Source of the DNA: an uncultured bacterium | GTDB taxonomy: Bacteria > Macinerneyibacteriota > Macinerneyibacteria > Macinerneyibacteriales > CAYRFE01 | Reading direction: 5' to 3' | Length of the DNA: 64,000 nucleotides | NCBI GenBank assembly: GCA_964423645.1 | Contig: CAYRFE010000004.1 | Span: forward strand, 27,227-91,226 | In this document: in pieces, positions 10,278 through 58,065 of the stretch | Position numbering within the stretch: position 1 is the first letter of the stretch | How the letters are laid out: every line of letters starts with the position of its first letter | Notes under the pieces: generated by a model | What the model was told of the DNA's origin: nothing | The model's input: only the letters and a program-made list of their open reading frames with translations | Database searches by the model: none | Made by a program: the position numbers and the translations under genes

Positions 10278-10826
10278 ATGCATCAGAATCCTGAAAGACA
10301 ACACCGTATCATCCGACTCATTCGCCACTTTCCGGTGCGCTATTCGTTCCGCCCGTTGTTGCGAGGCACAGAGCTTGAACAGGCGATGAAAGACTACGAT
10401 ACACCTGAGCTTTTGGATGTTCCAACGGCAATTCCCACCTATTCGTGTATCGGAACATTATATTCGAGTGACCTCAACCGCGCACGTATCACCGCTGAAC
10501 TTCTTTTTAAACAAAAACCGATCACTGATCCGCGCCTTCGCGAATTTGTGTTTGAGCCGGTATTACCGCCATCATGGAAACTGCCGGGGTGGCTTTGGGG
10601 AGTACTCGGACGCTACTGTGCGTCAAAAAAGAAGAATGAATCGTTTCGTACACCGATCATAGAATTTCTTGAAGAACTGCTTGCGACAAACACTGACGCG
10701 ACGATCGTCTGCCACGGCTATGTGATGTATATACTGCAAAAAGAGCTGTTGCGCCGCGGATTTTCGGGGAAAAGATTCCTTACGCCGAAACATGCAAAGC
10801 CGTATATTTTTACCAGGAGAAATTAA
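10278..10826 (+). CDS. Histidine phosphatase family protein (phosphoglycerate mutase-like)
   Basis: LIRH near the N-terminus and IVCHGYVMY near the C-terminus fit the RHG...HG catalytic pattern of the histidine phosphatase superfamily. Its stop overlaps the ATG of the next gene. Confidence 0.45.
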   Translation: MHQNPERQHRIIRLIRHFPVRYSFRPLLRGTELEQAMKDYDTPELLDVPTAIPTYSCIGTLYSSDLNRARITAELLFKQKPITDPRLREFVFEPVLPPSWKLPGWLWGVLGRYCASKKKNESFRTPIIEFLEELLATNTDATIVCHGYVMYILQKELLRRGFSGKRFLTPKHAKPYIFTRRN

Positions 10827-11857
10827 TGAAATCACTTTTTTTCATGCTCAACACGACCGCGTGTAATAACAGCTGTGCTCATTGTTATGTACCGCAACAC
10901 CGAAACAAAAGGTTCAAAACAACACAAGAAATTATCGCTATCTTTGAGATACTATCACGCCTTCGTGAAAAACCGTTACATGCAGAAAATATCACATTGT
11001 ACTTCCATGATGAGCCGACGTTACATCCCGACATTTTACACATTCTCAACCTTGTACAACAGTATAATTTTTCCTATGTACGCGGACTCATGACCAACGG
11101 ATCGGGAATTGCGCTGCGCCCCAACGGGACAACTATTGCAAAAGAAATTTATACCCTTGGCACTACAATGGCATGTATGTCTTTTTTTGGCAATGAACAA
11201 GAACATGACATGTTCGCAGGCAGGAAGGGCGCATATAACAACCTAATAACAGCTATTCATATCTGCAAAAAAATCGGTTTCGCTATTCATATCAATCTTT
11301 TTATTACACCGCAAAACTTACTGTCATTATCAAAAACAGAGCACTTCTTACGAGGAATTAGTGATTCTTTCAATTTCTCCGTTTACGCGCACACTGATCG
11401 CACTGATAAAAACGCCTCAATTCTTCTACAATCACATCACAAAGAATATTTACATACACTTGATTACAATATTGAAAATCCAAGATTACAACTTAAAACA
11501 CAAAAAGAATGGTTTGATATGGTTGAATCAAATGAATGTATGATGCCCTATTTAGGCACTTCTGAAGAAGAACTCGCGTCCGAAGTCACCGATTTTATTG
11601 AGTTTGACAACAAATTATATGATAGTTCAAATATTTTCACATCAAGTTTTATTCATTCGAATCTTTATGAACCGGACTTAGCTCAAAAAATTACAAATAA
11701 TCATACATCCGAGGGAACTCGTACATATAATGAATTACTGAAAGAATTTCCCAAAAAAGGTGCTGATTTTATGAAGGCATATCTTGATATGCAAGACAAT
11801 TCGTTATGGACTTTTTGGAATTTGATTGATCGATACTTCTATTATAGAACTAAATAA
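10826..11857 (+). CDS. Radical SAM protein
   Basis: N-terminal C-x3-C-x2-C (CNNSCAHC), the radical SAM 4Fe-4S motif. Translationally coupled to the phosphatase upstream. Confidence 0.75.
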   Translation: MKSLFFMLNTTACNNSCAHCYVPQHRNKRFKTTQEIIAIFEILSRLREKPLHAENITLYFHDEPTLHPDILHILNLVQQYNFSYVRGLMTNGSGIALRPNGTTIAKEIYTLGTTMACMSFFGNEQEHDMFAGRKGAYNNLITAIHICKKIGFAIHINLFITPQNLLSLSKTEHFLRGISDSFNFSVYAHTDRTDKNASILLQSHHKEYLHTLDYNIENPRLQLKTQKEWFDMVESNECMMPYLGTSEEELASEVTDFIEFDNKLYDSSNIFTSSFIHSNLYEPDLAQKITNNHTSEGTRTYNELLKEFPKKGADFMKAYLDMQDNSLWTFWNLIDRYFYYRTK

Positions 11858-11864
11858 ATAGGCT

Positions 11865-12539
11865 TTAAGACAACTTGAATTTTGCTGCTATTTTATCAAA
11901 CAAATCCGGGTATAACACACGTATACAATCAGGGCAAATCCCGTGTGAGATATCCTCGCCGACTAATTGATACAATTCAGGTGATATATCAATCCACAGA
12001 TTTTTTTCATACTTTGCTTTTTTGCAATTTGAACACACTACAAGAAACGATCTTTTATCCGACGGATAATTTTTCACAGTTGCCTTTAAAAGTCCGATAA
12101 GACTATCAACACTGCCTGTAACTTCGCTTTCTCGTCCTAAATCAATCACAATTCCGCGAATTCGAGCAGGTTTATTGTTTGATAACTTTTCAATCACTGT
12201 TCCCCGATCCATATACCAGCGATACTCCCCCGTTTCCGTTTTGATCCGGTAATCCACCTGATACAGGTCCGTCTCACCTTTCAACACCACCATCATGGCA
12301 TTCATCGTGTAAGCGAAATCATCGGGATGAAGTAAGTCAGTGAATACTTCATATCCTTTATCCTTAAAATCAGCCGGATCATACCCAAGCATAGTAACTT
12401 TCAATTCATTAAAAACGACTTTATTTGTGACAACATCCCATTCCCACCATGCAAAAGGAGAGTTCTTTAGCAACGTAACGGAATCAAAATATGTGCTCAT
12501 AAAACCTCCTATAGTACTCTTTGAAACAACTCTCTGCAT
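11865..12539 (-). CDS. PAS domain protein with C-terminal 4-Cys (CxxC...HGICPDC) module
   Basis: PAS fold (FAWWEWDVVTNKVVF...HPDDF...YRIKTETGEYRWY). C-terminus is VCSNCKKAKYEKNLWIDISPELYQLVGEDISHGICPDCIRVLYPDL. This is homologous to the C-terminus of the hybrid kinase at 30471-33170. Confidence 0.7.
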   Translation of the reverse strand: MQRVVSKSTIGGFMSTYFDSVTLLKNSPFAWWEWDVVTNKVVFNELKVTMLGYDPADFKDKGYEVFTDLLHPDDFAYTMNAMMVVLKGETDLYQVDYRIKTETGEYRWYMDRGTVIEKLSNNKPARIRGIVIDLGRESEVTGSVDSLIGLLKATVKNYPSDKRSFLVVCSNCKKAKYEKNLWIDISPELYQLVGEDISHGICPDCIRVLYPDLFDKIAAKFKLS

Positions 12540-12580
12540 AGTAACATCTCCCGTTATCTATGTAAAGAAAATGTTATACC

Positions 12581-12682
12581 ATATTCGAGCTGATGGTAGT
12601 GATCCGATTCAAGACGATTCCATTCATAATTTGAATTCATACGATCCGTTTCATCCGCAGATTACGCTGATTTTCACAGATT
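12581..12682. repeat. 102-bp direct repeat, copy 1 (4 mismatches vs copy 2)
   Basis: Sequence atattcgagctgatggtagtgatccgattcaagacgattccattcataatttgaattcatacgatcc...cacagatt. It lies immediately 3' of the methyltransferase stop. Read on the minus strand it encodes a duplicated 28-codon N-terminal stub, MNSNYEWNRLESDHYHQLEYGITFSLHR. Confidence 0.85.
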
Positions 12683-13460
12683 ACTGTTTTTCACCGATAA
12701 AAATCATATGTTCAGAGATTTCAGCAATTGCTCGATCCGCAGATGTTTGAGTAATAATCTTTTCCCATGCATTTCGTTTTATCGGATCGTTTAAAGCATT
12801 TGTTGCTTCTTGTAATCCTGATGATAATCCTTCACAACCGGCAATGTCAATTGTTTTCAATCCGCACGATTCGACTTCGGCAATCAATCTTTCAACAGTA
12901 AAAAAATGCCACCGTTCGCCGCGCACAATATTCTCACCTTTTTGTATCAACGATATTCTTTCTTCATCGAGTAATTGGTCACTTGCCTGTTTCATAACTG
13001 TTCGTAACATTGCATAATACCCCATGACACCGAGAATAATTACTCCGTCTTTTTTGGTCACTCGGACTATTTCGGATAAGGCTTGCAACCTTTGTTGTTT
13101 GTCGGCAATGCATGATAGCGGTCCGCCAAGACACAATGTTGCGTCGAATTTATGAGATTCAAATCGCGACATATCACGGATATCACCCTGAACGGCATCA
13201 GTCAACTTATTGTGTACATCCGGTGATTCAAGCGCAAATTTTTGTTTTGCGAGAATAATGTTTTCTTTTGAAATATCCAAAAGTGTTACATCATAGCCTT
13301 TTCTGCACAAATCAAGCGAATATCTACCGGGACCTCCTCCTGCATCAAGTATCTTCCCTGTTTTCGGAAGATATTTATTCAGGTAATGCCACGTAACGAT
13401 ATATTCAAGCTGATGGTAGTAATCCGATTCAAGACGATTCCATTCATAATTTGAATTCAT
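12681..13460 (-). CDS. Class I SAM-dependent methyltransferase
   Basis: ILDAGGGPGRYSLDLCRKGYDVTLLDIS (motif I) and VIILGVMGY. Its first 60 nt and 5'UTR are duplicated just after its stop (see repeat features). Confidence 0.8.
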   Translation of the reverse strand: MNSNYEWNRLESDYYHQLEYIVTWHYLNKYLPKTGKILDAGGGPGRYSLDLCRKGYDVTLLDISKENIILAKQKFALESPDVHNKLTDAVQGDIRDMSRFESHKFDATLCLGGPLSCIADKQQRLQALSEIVRVTKKDGVIILGVMGYYAMLRTVMKQASDQLLDEERISLIQKGENIVRGERWHFFTVERLIAEVESCGLKTIDIAGCEGLSSGLQEATNALNDPIKRNAWEKIITQTSADRAIAEISEHMIFIGEKQ

Positions 13461-13502
13461 ACGATCCCTTTCATCCGCAGATTACGCTGATTTTCACAGA
13501 TT
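13401..13502. repeat. 102-bp direct repeat, copy 2
   Basis: Near-identical to 12581-12682. Covers the first 20 codons and 42 nt of 5'UTR of the methyltransferase. Confidence 0.85.
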
Positions 13503-13874
13503 TAAAACCAACCTTTTATATTCTAACGACACTCCCCCGAAATTAATAAGAAGCGCACGATTAAACCCGGACGCCTTTAGATAATTAATAACTTGCGCCT
13601 CTTCGTTACCGGAAAGCATTGCAATAGCTTTCAACTCGACTATTACAGAGGTAAAACAAATAAAATCCGCTTTATAATACGTTTTCATTGGTTTGCCACG
13701 GTAAGATAGTGATAGTTCTTTTTCTCGAACATAAGGAATACCTTGTATAATGAATTCTTCTTCCAATGCTTCCTGATACACAGCTTCAAGGAAACCATGT
13801 CCGAGTTCACGATGCACGCGCATCGCTGCACCTATAATAGCATACGTTTCTTTGTCGTTATAATCAGCGTTCAT
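13494..13874 (-). CDS. GxxExxY family protein (PD-(D/E)XK-like)
   Basis: YAIIGAAMRVHRELGHGFLEAVYQEALEEEF is the GxxExxY family signature. About 125 aa. Confidence 0.75.
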   Translation of the reverse strand: MNADYNDKETYAIIGAAMRVHRELGHGFLEAVYQEALEEEFIIQGIPYVREKELSLSYRGKPMKTYYKADFICFTSVIVELKAIAMLSGNEEAQVINYLKASGFNRALLINFGGVSLEYKRLVLNL

Positions 13875-13898
13875 CTGCGTTAATCTGCGGATAAAAAG

Positions 13899-14861
13899 TT
13901 ATTTCAAATGCTTCTTCGCCCATTCCGCTGTTTTCAATATGCCTTCGTCAAGGTCGATCTTCGGCTCAAACTGTAGTATTTCCCGCGCTTTTTCGATCGA
14001 CGGGATACGCAAGTCGATATCCGCTGAAAGGTCCGGTTTGAAATAGATCTTCGACTTTGAATCCAACACGCGACATATCGTCTGTGCAAGCCCGTAAATA
14101 GTGATGATCGCACGCGGATTACCGATATTGAAGGTCTCGCCTATAGCGTTCTTGTTCTCAAGACATGCCAAAAGCCCGTCTACGAAATCGTCGACAAAAC
14201 ACCATGCACGAATACGGCTTCCGTCTCCGTAAATATTGATATCTTTATTCTGTAATGCATTGTTAATAAATATCTGAATCGCGCCCTCACCTGTTTGCCC
14301 GGGGCCGTAGACATTGAACGGACGCACGCTCACGGTAGGAAGTTTGAACTCTTTGTTGTAGGCCATGGTGAGATGCTCACCCGCAAGTTTGCTCACCGCA
14401 TAGGTCCAACGTGCTTCACCGGCCGTACCGGCCACGGTGCTGTCGGTCTCGGCTGATTTATATGCCATACTTCCGAATACTTCTGATGTGGAAAAATCAA
14501 TGAATCTATCCTTAATACCATTTTCCTTAGCCGCCTCAAGCGCATGTGCAGTACCGATCATATTCACCCGCATCGTTTTGGTCGGATGCACGATAACAGT
14601 ATCAATACCCGCGATCGCCGCCGCATGGATCACGATATCGGCACCCTTCATCGCGTTTTTCAAAGACTCATACTCAAGCACATCACCTTTTACGGCAGTA
14701 AGATTTTTATGATGTGCATACTTGCTGTCACTCAACGTATCACGGTGAAAATTATCATATGCGACTATCTCATTGCCTTCGATCAACTTTTCTATCACTT
14801 TGTTTGCAATAAATCCTGCACCGCCCGTAATAAAAATGCGCTTGCCCTTTATCATATCCAA
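13899..14861 (-). CDS. NAD-dependent sugar epimerase/dehydratase (SDR)
   Basis: [10 protein letters not shown] Rossmann motif, YAVSK (YxxxK) and TSEVFG. The probable start is MIKGKRIF, 2 codons into the track ORF. Confidence 0.85.
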
Positions 14862-16201: not shown

Positions 16202-16795
16202 TTAAGAAAATGGATTCTCCTCGTCGTCCTGCCACCGGGCAGGATTATTGATGATGTATTCACGAATGCGGTTGAGATCGGATTCATCGCGAATGATGTG
16301 TTCGTAATAATTGCGTTGCCATAATCGCGTATTAAATCGTTTCCATTGTAATTCATTTACACCGCGTACATATAATAACGTCGTCAACGATTTGTATTCA
16401 CCAACAATTTTGCCCAATGTTACCGTAGGGGCAATCCCTTGTGGTTGCCCATGTAATTGTGATAATTCATTTTCATTACCCTCGAGGGCGCCCACAAGAG
16501 GCGCCCCTACGGTGGATTCGATTTCATGAATATACAAAATTCCGTGGAAATGATTCGGCATGATCACGAATTCATCCAATTCAACCGATGGATAATGATC
16601 GGGGATCTCCAACCAACATCGTTCAACCATTTTCCCCGCGTCGTTCAATACCATCTCGCCGTCGATGATATCGCCGAATAGGCATTCCCGATTGTGCGCG
16701 CAAACGGTCACAAAATACACCCCTGCCGAGGAATAATCATACTCTTTCAGGCGGAGAGAATGACGGTGGAATTTATTTTTAAATAGCAAGATCAC
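16202..16795 (-). CDS. REP-associated tyrosine transposase / IS200-IS605 TnpA-like HUH (Y1) transposase
   Basis: HUH motif VIMPNHFHGILYI. Catalytic Tyr region WQRNYYEHIIRDESDLNRIREYIINNPARW. About 197 aa, as in RAYTs. Confidence 0.75.
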   Translation of the reverse strand: MILLFKNKFHRHSLRLKEYDYSSAGVYFVTVCAHNRECLFGDIIDGEMVLNDAGKMVERCWLEIPDHYPSVELDEFVIMPNHFHGILYIHEIESTVGAPLVGALEGNENELSQLHGQPQGIAPTVTLGKIVGEYKSLTTLLYVRGVNELQWKRFNTRLWQRNYYEHIIRDESDLNRIREYIINNPARWQDDEENPFS

Positions 16796-29892: not shown

Positions 29893-29956
29893 ACGCGCGG
29901 ATTATACGCCGATTTGCACTGACGGTCAAATGTAATCGGAAAAATAAGTAAAAATC

Positions 29957-30120
29957 GAGACCTTTGCGAAATTCGAAATTTTTTTATTTTTCTGTTTTTC
30001 CTAAATAGGGGTGTGGGGACGAAGTCACCACCATATAACAAGTTAAGCCCCTCACGATTTTTCACGGGAGGGGTTTGGGGTGGGCACAACTTGTAAAAAT
30101 TGTACTTTCGCAAAGCTCTC
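29957..30120. mobile_element. Full-length MITE/REP-like element with terminal inverted repeats
   Basis: Left TIR gagacctttgcgaaattcgaaa, right TIR tgtactttcgcaaagctctc. Internal palindromes ggggtgtggggacgaagtcaccacc and cccctcacgatttttcacgggagggg, followed by G4-like gggaggggtttggggtggg. Homologous copies at 18061, 22926, 33892, 39294, 53501 and 57958. Confidence 0.65.
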
Positions 30121-30470
30121 TGATCGGGGATGGGCATCGTCGATTGGATTCCCGTTTTCACGAAAACGACACACAATTTAAATAACAGAACATCAAAAAA
30201 TCATCTGCTGAAACAACAGAAGGTGTCATTATAGGGCTTGACCCGATGATCCGGTGGTTATTATGAAATGCACCCGGATTCCCGTTAGAATGTATCCTCG
30301 TGAAAACGGAGACGGGAATGACACATCATATGGTTTTTTTATCAAGACAAAAGTTCGACACGGTTTTTAAAAATTCCTCTCAATCGTGAAGTGATCCACA
30401 TCTCCATACACAGCGAGAAATTGAACCTGTTGAGTTTTAATACTCTCCTTTCAAATTCCGTCTTTATATC

Positions 30471-33790: not shown

Positions 33791-33891
33791 ACAAATCCTC
33801 CTATAGAATCATGATTTTTGAATCCCCCACATCGTAGTATAAACACTTTGATTTTTTTTTCAAGAATAATTTTCGAAACGCAAACATTATA

Positions 33892-34105
33892 GAAACCTTT
33901 GCGAAAATCAAAATATCTTAATGACGATCATTTCCCAAATACGGACGTGAGGATACAGTCATCATTTAGACCTTTGCAAAATTCAAAATTTCCTAAGTAT
34001 CTTTACTTTCTATAAAGGGGGTACACAAATTCAAAATTTGGTAGTTTTGCAAAGGTCTTCAACAGGCGATCAAAATATGCGAGAACTTTGTCCCCGCACC
34101 CCTTT
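33892..34105. repeat. Compound REP/MITE-like element (two left ends, one right end, G-rich tail)
   Basis: aaacctttgcgaaaatcaaaat; tagacctttgcaaaattcaaaattt; inverted aaattcaaaatttggtagttttgcaaaggtc; ctttgtccccgcacccc. Confidence 0.6.
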
Positions 34106-53429: not shown

Positions 53430-53500
53430 TTTGAGGTGTACTATACGAAAAAATCGCAAATTGTCAAGTAAAATGTCGAATATGCGCGAATTTATTTATC

Positions 53501-53590
53501 GAGATCTTTGCGAAATTCAAAATTACTAAATATTCTTTATTCTCTAAAAAAGAGGAGTCGGGACACAAATATTGTAGTATTTTTTTGAGA
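53501..53590. repeat. REP/MITE-like element copy (left portion)
   Basis: gagatctttgcgaaattcaaaatt...taaaaaagaggagtcgggacacaaatattgtag, homologous to 29957-30045. Confidence 0.6.
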
Positions 53591-57674: not shown

Positions 57675-57957
57675 ATTTACCCCCAAATTCTTATCTACGT
57701 CATTCTTCATGAAGTATACGTGTATTTGCATGCTTTTGCAAGTGTGCCTTTGTTGTATTGAACAATTTATCCGCAATGTTGTGTAAAAGAATCATTTTGC
57801 CACCCCATCATCACGGACCAAACCGACAACGAATATGTGATGACTTCCGTTTTTTTATGAAAACAGATTTTTTATCAATCCCGCAACGTTTTTCGCATCG
57901 CACAACTGCTGCATACGTCGAGTGTGAATTATATATCGCATTGTTTTATGACGTATC

Positions 57958-58065
57958 GAGCCCTTTGCGAAATTCGAATTTTTTCATTTTCTATTTTTCA
58001 TAAAGAGGAGTGTGGGGATGAAATCCACACTATATAACAATTGTTTGCTATCCCCTCTCCCCGCA
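57958..58065. repeat. REP/MITE-like element copy
   Basis: gagccctttgcgaaattcgaattttttcattttctatttttcataaagaggagtgtggggatgaaatccacactatataacaattg...cccctctccccgcac. Confidence 0.6.

What the first reader, a model, noticed from the sequence alone, without database searches (positions are those of the whole stretch)
12539..13502. 102-bp direct repeat exactly brackets a methyltransferase gene and creates a leader-peptide stub upstream of the PAS gene
Copy 2 (13401-13502) holds the methyltransferase 5'UTR and first 20 codons. Copy 1 (12581-12682) begins right at the methyltransferase stop and differs by 4 mismatches. On the minus strand copy 1 retains the ATG and encodes a 28-codon stub (MNSNYEWNRLESDHYHQLEYGITFSLHR, then stop). 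That stub ends 27 nt before the PAS gene RBS. This looks like a recombination or cassette-insertion scar. It may place the PAS gene under the duplicated upstream signals, or make its expression depend on translation of the stub.
Basis: seen in the sequence. Interest (0 to 1): 0.5.

Follow-up and report, generated by a model that had tools for sequence, protein, structure and literature searches.

The report
Duplicated gene-start scar beside methyltransferase
A real 102-base direct repeat flanks a methyltransferase gene, but it is an ordinary recombination scar (a leftover copy of the gene's start fused to one arm of a small palindromic element) that makes the gene easy to lose, not a regulatory leader for the neighbouring PAS gene.

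Summary
The repeat is real: 12581-12682 and 13401-13502, 102 nt, 3 mismatches (not 4). It is identical in a second assembly. A third, k=31 assembly breaks exactly 30 nt into the repeat, so it is not an artefact.

Each copy consists of:
- a 37-nt right arm of an inverted-repeat cassette that encloses the adjacent GxxExxY (PDDEXK_3) gene;
- 5 nt of spacer;
- the first 20 codons of the methyltransferase. These match the family consensus, so the 28-codon "stub" is a gene fragment, not a designed leader peptide.

The closest relative (PAS 93%, epimerase 98% identical) has one copy of the element with the same stub junction and no methyltransferase. That is the product expected from recombination between the two copies. 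The 820-bp methyltransferase segment is therefore a presence/absence polymorphism bounded by the repeat, at the mosaic edge of a glycan gene cluster.

The regulatory idea is not supported. PAS starts at 12500 and has a strong SD. A promoter-like TTTACA-17-TGnTAYTAT, conserved in three lineages, lies downstream of the stub, whose stop codon falls in the promoter spacer. No RNA structure exceeds shuffled controls, and the stub is not conserved as a peptide.

Side result: the 28-nt arm motif is a dispersed palindromic element resembling 23S rRNA intervening sequences. Overall this is ordinary, of low-to-moderate interest.

The parts
13401..13502 (-). R2: repeat copy at the true methyltransferase start. 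Contents: right arm of the GxxExxY cassette, 5 nt, ATG and codons 1-20.
12581..12682 (-). R1: duplicated copy directly behind the methyltransferase stop codon. Contents: a solo right arm, a weakened SD, ATG and 20 methyltransferase codons.
12681..13460 (-). Intact class I SAM-dependent methyltransferase, 259 aa. Together with one repeat copy it forms the 820-bp segment that is absent in the closest relative.
12554..12640 (-). 28-codon stub ORF: 20 codons of methyltransferase 5' end plus 8 out-of-context codons. It is a pseudogene fragment.
13466..13502 (-). Right arm RA2 (AATCTGTGAAAATCAGCGTAATCTGCGGATGAAAGGG) of the inverted-repeat cassette. It overlaps the GxxExxY stop codon and the methyltransferase SD.
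12646..12682 (-). Solo right arm RA1, the copy within R1.
13862..13898 (-). Left arm LA (CTTTTTATCCGCAGATTAACGCAGATGAACGCTGATT), built of CGCAGAT-type units and containing the GxxExxY start codon. It pairs with RA2 at -40.3 kcal/mol, against -13.4 +/- 3.4 for shuffles.
13494..13874 (-). GxxExxY / PDDEXK_3 ORF in the loop of the cassette. It is under purifying selection: 35 nt differences but only 5 aa differences versus L013.
12538..12566 (-). Sigma-70-like promoter for PAS (TTTACA, 17 nt, TG-n-TACTAT), conserved in L002 and L003. The stub stop codon (12556-12554) lies inside its spacer.
11865..12500 (-). PAS_3 protein gene with corrected start (211 aa). GGAGG at 12509-12505.
13899..14861 (-). 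NAD-dependent epimerase/dehydratase, the last gene of the glycan-modification cluster. A compositional and mosaic boundary lies at its stop codon.

Best explanation
R1 is a non-functional duplication scar.

Anatomy (shown): an inverted-repeat cassette carrying a GxxExxY nuclease-family gene sits between the epimerase gene and the methyltransferase gene. Its right arm ends 5 nt before the methyltransferase ATG.

Origin (inferred): a 102-nt piece (right arm, SD and the first 20 codons) became duplicated directly behind the methyltransferase stop codon. This happened either by tandem duplication of the 820-bp [arm + gene] unit followed by deletion of the second gene body, or by template switching at the base of the palindrome. 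It occurred before the window lineage split from its closest sampled relative.

Consequence: the two direct copies make the 820-bp methyltransferase segment prone to loss (and, by homologous exchange between strains, to regain) through ordinary homologous recombination. The closest relative has exactly the predicted one-copy, methyltransferase-less allele (shown). That it arose by R2 x R1 recombination is inferred.

The stub does nothing for PAS. PAS has its own conserved promoter and strong SD downstream of the stub.
For: - The repeat is real and reproducible.
- The first 20 codons match the methyltransferase family consensus.
- L012 and L002 come from one sample and overlap by exactly 30 nt. 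Joined, they read epimerase, decayed cassette, single R, identical stub/tail junction (GAATAT|GGTATAAC), PAS, with no methyltransferase.
- No methyltransferase homolog between 54% and 100% identity exists in 5.8 billion proteins, although that sample's PAS and epimerase are present.
- The left edge of R coincides with the inner edge of the cassette's right arm.
- R1 versus R2 shows 3 differences; R1 versus L002-R shows 7. By my own binomial estimate (3 of 10, p about 0.17) these are not distinguishable, so the data are compatible with a duplication near the time of the split.
- The PAS promoter and SD lie downstream of the stub and are conserved in three lineages.
- There is no structure above shuffles.
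- The stub carries non-conservative changes in L002.
Against: - The direction of change (loss in the relative versus gain in the window) is not proven. Only one close relative with the right-hand side is available.
- R1 and R2 are, if anything, more alike (97%) than the window and L002 are (about 93%). This could mean a younger duplication, gene conversion, or an imported allele.
- The L012-L002 join rests on a k-1 overlap at a graph branch.
- A non-tandem 102-nt duplication is mechanistically unusual, and the tandem route needs an extra deletion.
- The locus is a recombination mosaic, so simple tree reasoning is unsafe.
- Promoter assignment is by consensus and conservation only.
Confidence: 0.62

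Rival explanations
1. Allele-joining or import. The stub allele (arm-stub-tail-PAS, as in L002) arose first, by a simple internal deletion of the methyltransferase. The window's structure was then built when an intact [GxxExxY-arm-methyltransferase] allele from another lineage was joined to it. The conserved arm may have served as the short homology, if the donor had an arm behind the methyltransferase.
For: - Two old allele classes, intact cassette (window, L013, L014) versus decayed REP-filled cassette (L002/L012, L003), do not follow the epimerase or PAS similarities.
- R1 begins with the arm-consensus TAATCTGTG, whereas R2 has AAATCTGTG.
- R1 and R2 differ by only 3%.
- GC3 and similarity boundaries lie at the epimerase stop.
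Against: - There is no evidence for an arm downstream of the methyltransferase in any donor.
- No other arm copy occurs in the 64-kb window.
- No clean breakpoint was found in the epimerase gene (post hoc p = 0.04).
- The model needs two alleles in one cell plus a crossover on about 30 nt of homology.
Confidence: 0.22
2. Active cassette mobilisation. The arms are sites for a dedicated enzyme, either the GxxExxY PD-(D/E)XK protein or the nearby RAYT-like Y1 transposase. This enzyme excises or inserts the methyltransferase segment, or copies arm-plus-flank segments.
For: - The arm is a dispersed element conserved at 26 of 28 positions, found in genomes of 36-53% GC and in several copies per genome.
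- The GxxExxY ORF is under purifying selection.
- The arm relationship is preserved with different unit sequences in another copy.
- The edge of R coincides with the arm edge.
- A RAYT-like gene lies 2.7 kb away.
Against: - There is no evidence of excision products.
- The repeat extends 65 nt beyond the arm into ordinary coding sequence, which site-specific systems do not produce.
- The RAYT gene is not flanked by arms.
- The methyltransferase segment has only direct arms, not an inverted pair.
- No mobility of these cassettes has been demonstrated, and the mechanism for rRNA IVS elements is unknown (PMC4990558).
Confidence: 0.08
3. Regulatory leader. The stub is a translated upstream ORF whose translation, or the duplicated upstream signals, control PAS expression.
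For: - The stub ORF is intact in both the window and L002, with 28 codons and the same stop.
- No terminator is predicted between the methyltransferase and PAS, so read-through transcripts would carry it.
Against: - The stub lies upstream of the conserved PAS promoter.
- There is no alternative-hairpin structure, z about 0.
- Its SD is weak, -3.3 kcal/mol against -10.9 for PAS.
- Changes between the window and L002 are 2 non-synonymous to 1 synonymous, including K at the invariant E19.
- L003 has no stub but keeps the promoter and PAS.
Confidence: 0.05
4. Assembly artefact: a collapsed, duplicated or chimeric join of strain variants.
For: The source is metagenomic, and strain variants with and without the segment exist.
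Against: - The structure is identical in separate records.
- The copies differ at 3 sites, and k=141 exceeds the repeat length.
- A k=31 unitig ends exactly k-1 into the repeat, as expected for a true two-copy repeat.
- Junction k-mers cannot be invented by de Bruijn assemblers (established knowledge).
Confidence: 0.03

Closest known systems
Deletion/duplication polymorphisms bounded by short direct repeats, formed by homologous recombination between repeats and leaving gene-fragment scars
   Same: Two near-identical direct copies flank a dispensable segment. One copy is the true gene start and the other a truncated fragment. A close relative carries the one-copy allele lacking the segment.
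   Different: The left edge of the repeat coincides with the arm of a palindromic cassette. The copy sits exactly at the stop codon, so the gene stays intact.
Bacterial 23S rRNA intervening sequences (IVS) with an S23p/four-helix-bundle ORF, e.g. Coxiella burnetii and Leptospira (PMC4990558)
   Same: Terminal inverted repeats form a long stem. A small ORF of about 125 aa lies in the loop. Tandem heptamer-based repeats (GACAGAT in Coxiella; CGCAGAT/CACAGAT here) sit at or just before the ORF start. The ORF has a poor or absent SD. The ORF decays in some strains. Distribution is sporadic and apparently horizontally spread.
   Different: Here the cassette lies between protein-coding genes, not in rRNA. 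The ORF is a GxxExxY PD-(D/E)XK protein, not S23p, and is under purifying selection. RNase III processing is untested. ORF-less nested-palindrome derivatives are dispersed in intergenic regions.
REP/REPIN elements with RAYT (REP-associated tyrosine transposase)
   Same: Dispersed intergenic palindromic repeats. A RAYT-like Y1 transposase gene lies 2.7 kb away. REP-like hairpins fill the decayed cassette in relatives.
   Different: The arms are 30-37-nt arrays of 9-10-nt units separated by 75-400 nt, not 20-40-nt hairpins. The arms do not flank the RAYT gene in the window.
Leader peptides / upstream ORF attenuators (trpL-type)
   Same: A short ORF with its own ATG lies upstream of a gene on the same strand.
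   Different: There are no alternative hairpins or terminator. It lies upstream of the gene's promoter, is derived from another gene's 5' end, and is not conserved as a peptide.
Integron gene cassettes and transposon target-site duplications
   Same: A single gene is bracketed by direct repeats.
   Different: There is no integrase or transposase between or beside the repeats. The repeat is 102 nt long and contains coding sequence, so it is neither an attC site nor a 2-15-bp target duplication.

Membership tests
Direct-repeat-bounded segmental duplication / gene-fragment scar | Two direct copies far more similar than chance, reproducible in independent data | tested here: met
   The copies match at 99 of 102 positions. 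The structure is identical in an ENA contig. A k=31 unitig ends at k-1 inside the repeat.
Direct-repeat-bounded segmental duplication / gene-fragment scar | One copy is the true gene start and the other a truncated fragment of the same gene | tested here: met
   Codons 1-20 carry the family-invariant residues E6, W7, R9, L10 and E19. Homology stops at codon 20 in R1.
Direct-repeat-bounded segmental duplication / gene-fragment scar | Related genomes show the one-copy allele lacking the intervening segment | tested here: met
   L012+L002 have a single R, the same junction and no methyltransferase. Only one such relative is available.
Leader peptide / attenuator | The short ORF lies on the regulated gene's mRNA, between the transcription start and the gene | tested here: not met
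   A conserved promoter-like site at 12566-12538 lies downstream of the stub. This is a prediction, not a mapped 5' end.
Leader peptide / attenuator | Alternative RNA hairpins or a terminator coupled to ORF translation | tested here: not met
   Folding z-scores range from +0.19 to -0.28. No terminator-like sites were found. Rfam gave no match.
Leader peptide / attenuator | Peptide or ORF conserved among relatives | tested here: not met
   L002 has the changes H14R and E19K. L003 has no significant similarity, z = 0.95.
IVS-like palindromic cassette (23S rRNA intervening-sequence type) | Terminal inverted repeats forming a long stem around the element | tested here: met
   The LA.RA duplex is -40.3 kcal/mol, against -13.4 +/- 3.4 for shuffles. 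The stem is conserved in L013. Complementary arms with different unit sequence occur in L034.
IVS-like palindromic cassette (23S rRNA intervening-sequence type) | Small ORF in the loop, preceded by tandem heptamer-type repeats | tested here: met
   The GxxExxY ORF of 126 aa matches PF13366 at E = 1e-36 and TIGR04256 at 2e-39. CGCAGAT units overlap its ATG. Compare PMC4990558. The ORF family differs from S23p.
IVS-like palindromic cassette (23S rRNA intervening-sequence type) | Inserted in a 23S rRNA helix and excised from the transcript by RNase III | tested here: not met
   The cassette lies between the epimerase and methyltransferase genes. RNase III cleavage is not testable here. So it works like an IVS in architecture but is not a member in the strict rRNA sense.
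REP/REPIN-RAYT system | The repeats flank the RAYT gene as inverted pairs and recur throughout the genome | tested here: not met
   The RAYT-like gene at 16202-16795 scores 66 bits against NF047646, below the cutoff of 80. Its flanks lack the arms. The arms occur only at this locus within the 64 kb.
Integron cassette / transposon target-site duplication | An integrase or transposase adjacent, with attC-type or short (2-15 bp) repeats | tested here: not met
   Neighbouring genes are ZnuABC, histidine phosphatase, radical SAM, PAS, methyltransferase, GxxExxY and glycan enzymes. The repeat is 102 nt long and contains coding sequence.

The most novel reading that the evidence does not exclude
GxxExxY palindromic cassettes (IVS-like elements outside rRNA) may be active selfish elements. 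Their highly conserved arms, found at 26 of 28 fixed positions in genomes of 36-53% GC, would act as portable recombination or cleavage sites. On this reading the arm-plus-flank duplication seen here is a by-product of their activity, giving cassette-like gain and loss of adjacent genes at the borders of glycan clusters.
Probability: 0.1. Interest if true: 0.6.

Novelty: new member of a known kind. Interest (0 to 1): 0.27.

Why it matters
The repeat itself matters little. It documents how a surface-glycan-associated methyltransferase can be lost or regained between closely related strains by plain homologous recombination. It also warns annotators that the 28-codon ORF and the long PAS start at 12539 are spurious.

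The more useful by-product concerns the GxxExxY (PDDEXK_3) gene. It sits in the loop of a long inverted repeat with the same architecture as 23S rRNA intervening sequences. ORF-less derivatives of that element are dispersed in many unrelated genomes. The origin and mobility of IVS elements remain unexplained (PMC4990558), so non-rRNA copies with an ORF under purifying selection give a tractable place to test whether the encoded nuclease-family protein acts on the arms.

Tried and rejected
- **Metagenome scan, repeat's coding part:** 0 hits.
- **GTDB species genomes via PAS:** only relatives at 54% identity or less, with unrelated context. The window's species is absent.
- **Source names for the organism:** none on record.
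- **Rfam on 11800-14100:** no match.
- **RNA folding of R1, R2 and the stub-to-PAS interval:** no better than shuffles.
- **Stub remnant in the 71% relative L003:** not significant, z = 0.95. The tail is not derived from the methyltransferase body.
- **Recombination breakpoint in the epimerase gene:** the window is L012-like over most of the gene and mixed in the last 300 nt or so. There is no clean switch.
- **Next PAS homolog (L036, 58%):** unrelated context.
- **RAYT flanks:** no arms.
- **"MNADY" in ORF-less elements as evidence of GxxExxY deletion derivatives:** rejected. Those codons are simply the arm units read in frame.
- **A 10-nt arm-like match inside the methyltransferase 3' end (12735-12744):** judged to be ordinary coding sequence, because the region aligns with homologs.
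- **Literature on GxxExxY/PDDEXK_3:** only a superfamily table entry, "unknown, multiple transfers".
Full report
**Observation.** The window holds a 102-nt direct repeat, R1 at 12581-12682 and R2 at 13401-13502, with a start-to-start spacing of 820 nt. The copies differ at three positions, 12587, 12601 and 12648, not four. All genes here are on the minus strand:
- epimerase/dehydratase, 13899-14861
- GxxExxY/PDDEXK_3 protein, 13494-13874
- class I SAM methyltransferase, 12681-13460
- 28-codon ORF, 12554-12640
- PAS_3 protein

R2 contains 42 nt upstream of the methyltransferase ATG plus codons 1-20.

**Not an artefact.** An ENA MEGAHIT contig (k141, 35 kb) is 100% identical over 12.8 kb and has both copies with the same three mismatches. 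A Logan contig (k=31) from run SRR7760390 is 100% identical over 2127 nt. It stops exactly at position 30 of R2, which is k-1 bases into the repeat. A de Bruijn unitig does this when it enters a sequence that has two different predecessors in the reads.

**What the repeat is made of.**
- The last 60 nt are true methyltransferase coding sequence. In an alignment with eleven homologs of 44-52% identity, the first 20 residues match the family consensus (..EWNRL..D.YH.LE.), including the invariant E6, W7, R9, L10 and E19. The stub is therefore a 5' gene fragment.
- The first 37 nt (AATCTGTGAAAATCAGCGTAATCTGCGGATGAAAGGG) form the right arm of an inverted repeat. The left arm lies at 13898-13862 (CTTTTTATCCGCAGATTAACGCAGATGAACGCTGATT), on the other side of the GxxExxY ORF, and contains that ORF's start codon.
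- The two arms pair at -40.3 kcal/mol, against -13.4 +/- 3.4 for shuffled arms, best shuffle -28.
- The stem includes the methyltransferase's weak SD-like AAAGGG. The arm ends 5 nt before the methyltransferase ATG.

**The arm is a dispersed element.** The 28-nt core TCTGTGAAAATCAGCGNNATCTGCGGAT has 19 exact matches in JGI and ENA metagenome contigs of 36-53% GC, with several copies on contigs of one project.
- 12 of 15 distinct loci carry an inverted CGCAGAT-type array upstream of the motif. Most of these also have outer (CACAGAG)n and/or (CTCTGTG)n arrays, giving an ORF-less nested palindrome: (CACAGAG)n, (CGCAGAT)3, a core of about 75 nt, (ATCTGCG)3, (CTCTGTG)n. The ten elements folded had energies of -67 to -115 kcal/mol, and they lie between ordinary genes.
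- GxxExxY homologs in L013, L031 and L034 have the same arm-ORF-arm layout. In one L034 copy the units are CACAGAC on the left and GTCTGTG on the right, different in sequence but still complementary.
- The GxxExxY ORF is under purifying selection: 35 nt differences but only 5 of 127 residues differ between the window and L013. It has no SD.
- This is the architecture reported for the Coxiella 23S rRNA intervening sequence: a terminal inverted-repeat stem, a small ORF in the loop, tandem GACAGAT heptamers before the ORF start, and a poor SD (PMC4990558). Here the element lies between protein genes and carries a different ORF family. Rfam has nothing for it.

**Relatives.** The methyltransferase has no homolog between 54% and 100% identity in the 5.8-billion-protein set. 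PAS has homologs at 93% (L002) and 71% (L003). The epimerase has homologs at 98% (L012), 94% (L013), 93% (L014) and 91% (L003, L015).
- **L012 and L002** come from the same run, and the last 30 nt of L012 equal the first 30 nt of L002. Joined, they read:
  1. epimerase;
  2. left arm, interrupted by a 50-nt hairpin;
  3. seven GxxExxY-like codons;
  4. three REP-like hairpins;
  5. decayed GxxExxY 3' end;
  6. a single R;
  7. the same junction GAATAT|GGTATAAC;
  8. tail, then PAS.

  There is no methyltransferase.
- **L003** has a collinear hairpin-filled spacer, a degenerate arm, 40 unrelated nt and the tail. It has no significant stub.
- **L013 and L014** have an intact or interrupted GxxExxY after the epimerase. 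L013's contig ends 34 nt into the arm.
- **Mosaic locus.** The intact-cassette and decayed-cassette alleles do not follow epimerase or PAS similarity. The window is L012-like over most of the epimerase gene (107 versus 34 informative sites) yet has the L013-type cassette. GC3 drops from 0.51-0.55 in WbuX and the epimerase to 0.32-0.38 in GxxExxY, methyltransferase and PAS. The repeat therefore sits at a recombination-prone border of a glycan gene cluster.

**History.** The one-copy allele in L002 is exactly what recombination between R2 and R1 would leave. Because the stub derives from the gene, the gene predates it.
- The simplest route is a duplication of arm plus 5' end behind the gene, followed by repeat-mediated deletion in the L002 lineage. 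The duplication could arise by tandem duplication of the 820-bp unit and later deletion, or by template switching at the palindrome.
- R1 and R2 differ at 3 sites and R1 and L002-R at 7. My own binomial estimate, 3 of 10, gives p about 0.17. The counts therefore neither require nor exclude gene conversion or a younger origin.
- The alternative is that the window joins an intact allele to a stub allele at an arm. This cannot be excluded.
- Either way it is a recombination scar.

**Regulation.**
- PAS homologs are about 211 aa. The upstream ATG at 12539 is ATA in L002. The ATG at 12500 has GGAGG, with anti-SD pairing of -10.9 kcal/mol.
- A promoter-like TTTACA, 17 nt, TG-n-TA(C/T)TAT is conserved in the window, L002 and L003, at 12566-12538 in the window. 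The stub stop codon lies in its spacer, so the stub is upstream of the likely transcription start.
- R has no promoter-like site on the gene strand, and no terminator-like site occurs in the region.
- Folding of R1, R2 and the stub-to-PAS interval is indistinguishable from shuffles.
- The stub's SD-like sequence is weakened in R1, from AAGGG to AACGG, -3.3 kcal/mol. L002's stub carries R14 and K19, the latter at an invariant position.
- The leader-peptide idea is therefore not supported.

**Verdict.** The scar interpretation is supported and the regulatory interpretation is not. The repeat is an ordinary kind of structure. The adjacent IVS-like GxxExxY cassette and its dispersed derivatives are the more interesting by-product.

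Noticed in passing
window 13466-13898; L017-L035: The GxxExxY gene sits in the loop of a long inverted repeat built of 9-10-nt CGCAGAT-type units. ORF-less nested palindromes with the same arms, flanked by (CACAGAG)n/(CTCTGTG)n outer arms, are dispersed in unrelated metagenome contigs of 36-53% GC. The architecture parallels 23S rRNA intervening sequences.
   Followed up: partly
window 29954-30020, 33889-33922, 33964-34030, 53498-53564, 57955-58021: A second repeat family (ATCGAGACCTTTGCGAAATTCGAAATTT...), with five copies at 61-85% identity in intergenic positions. In L014 the GxxExxY ORF is interrupted after about codon 78 by a similar sequence (GAGACTTTTGCAAAAT...), which suggests a mobile element end.
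   Followed up: no
window 30146-30252; L002 1-130; L003 3000-3170; L015 2740-2830: REP-like hairpins (GGATTCCCG..TTC.CGGGAATGAC and GTCATTATCGGGCTTGACCCGATAATCC) recur in the window, in the decayed-cassette spacers of relatives, and in a different genome from the same sample.
   Followed up: no
window 16202-16795: A RAYT-like Y1 transposase gene (NF047646, 66 bits, below the cutoff of 80) is embedded in the glycan cluster between WbuZ and WbuX. Relatives L012, L013 and L014 carry different genes at this position, and L003 has a homolog of only 57% identity. This is another variable slot.
   Followed up: partly
window 12500-12539: The longest PAS ORF (224 aa, ATG 12539) is probably mis-started. 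Homologs are 211 aa, the ATG is ATA in L002, and the -10 box of the conserved promoter overlaps it. The real start is ATG 12500.
   Followed up: yes
window 13875-13900: The GxxExxY ORF has no SD (anti-SD pairing +0.3 kcal/mol), and its ATG lies inside the left arm, 24 nt after the epimerase stop. It is nevertheless under purifying selection, so its translation mechanism (coupling, or processing of the stem) is unexplained.
   Followed up: no
window 10826-11857 versus L002 1038-1799: The gene downstream of PAS also varies. The window has a convergent radical SAM gene (343 aa), whereas the 93% relative has an unrelated co-directional 253-aa gene without Pfam hits. The flanking histidine phosphatase and ZnuABC genes are conserved.
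   Followed up: no
window 13899 (epimerase stop): There is a sharp compositional boundary. GC3 is 0.51-0.55 for WbuX and the epimerase, against 0.32-0.38 for GxxExxY, methyltransferase and PAS. L003 shares WbuX at 96% aa but PAS at only 71%. This is consistent with horizontal exchange of the glycan cluster up to this point.
   Followed up: partly
window 11865-12050: The PAS protein family (about 210 aa, widespread in Spirochaetota, Bacteroidota, Desulfobacterota and others) ends in a Cys-rich CxxC...CxxC segment with no Pfam match. It may be a small metal-binding output domain.
   Followed up: no
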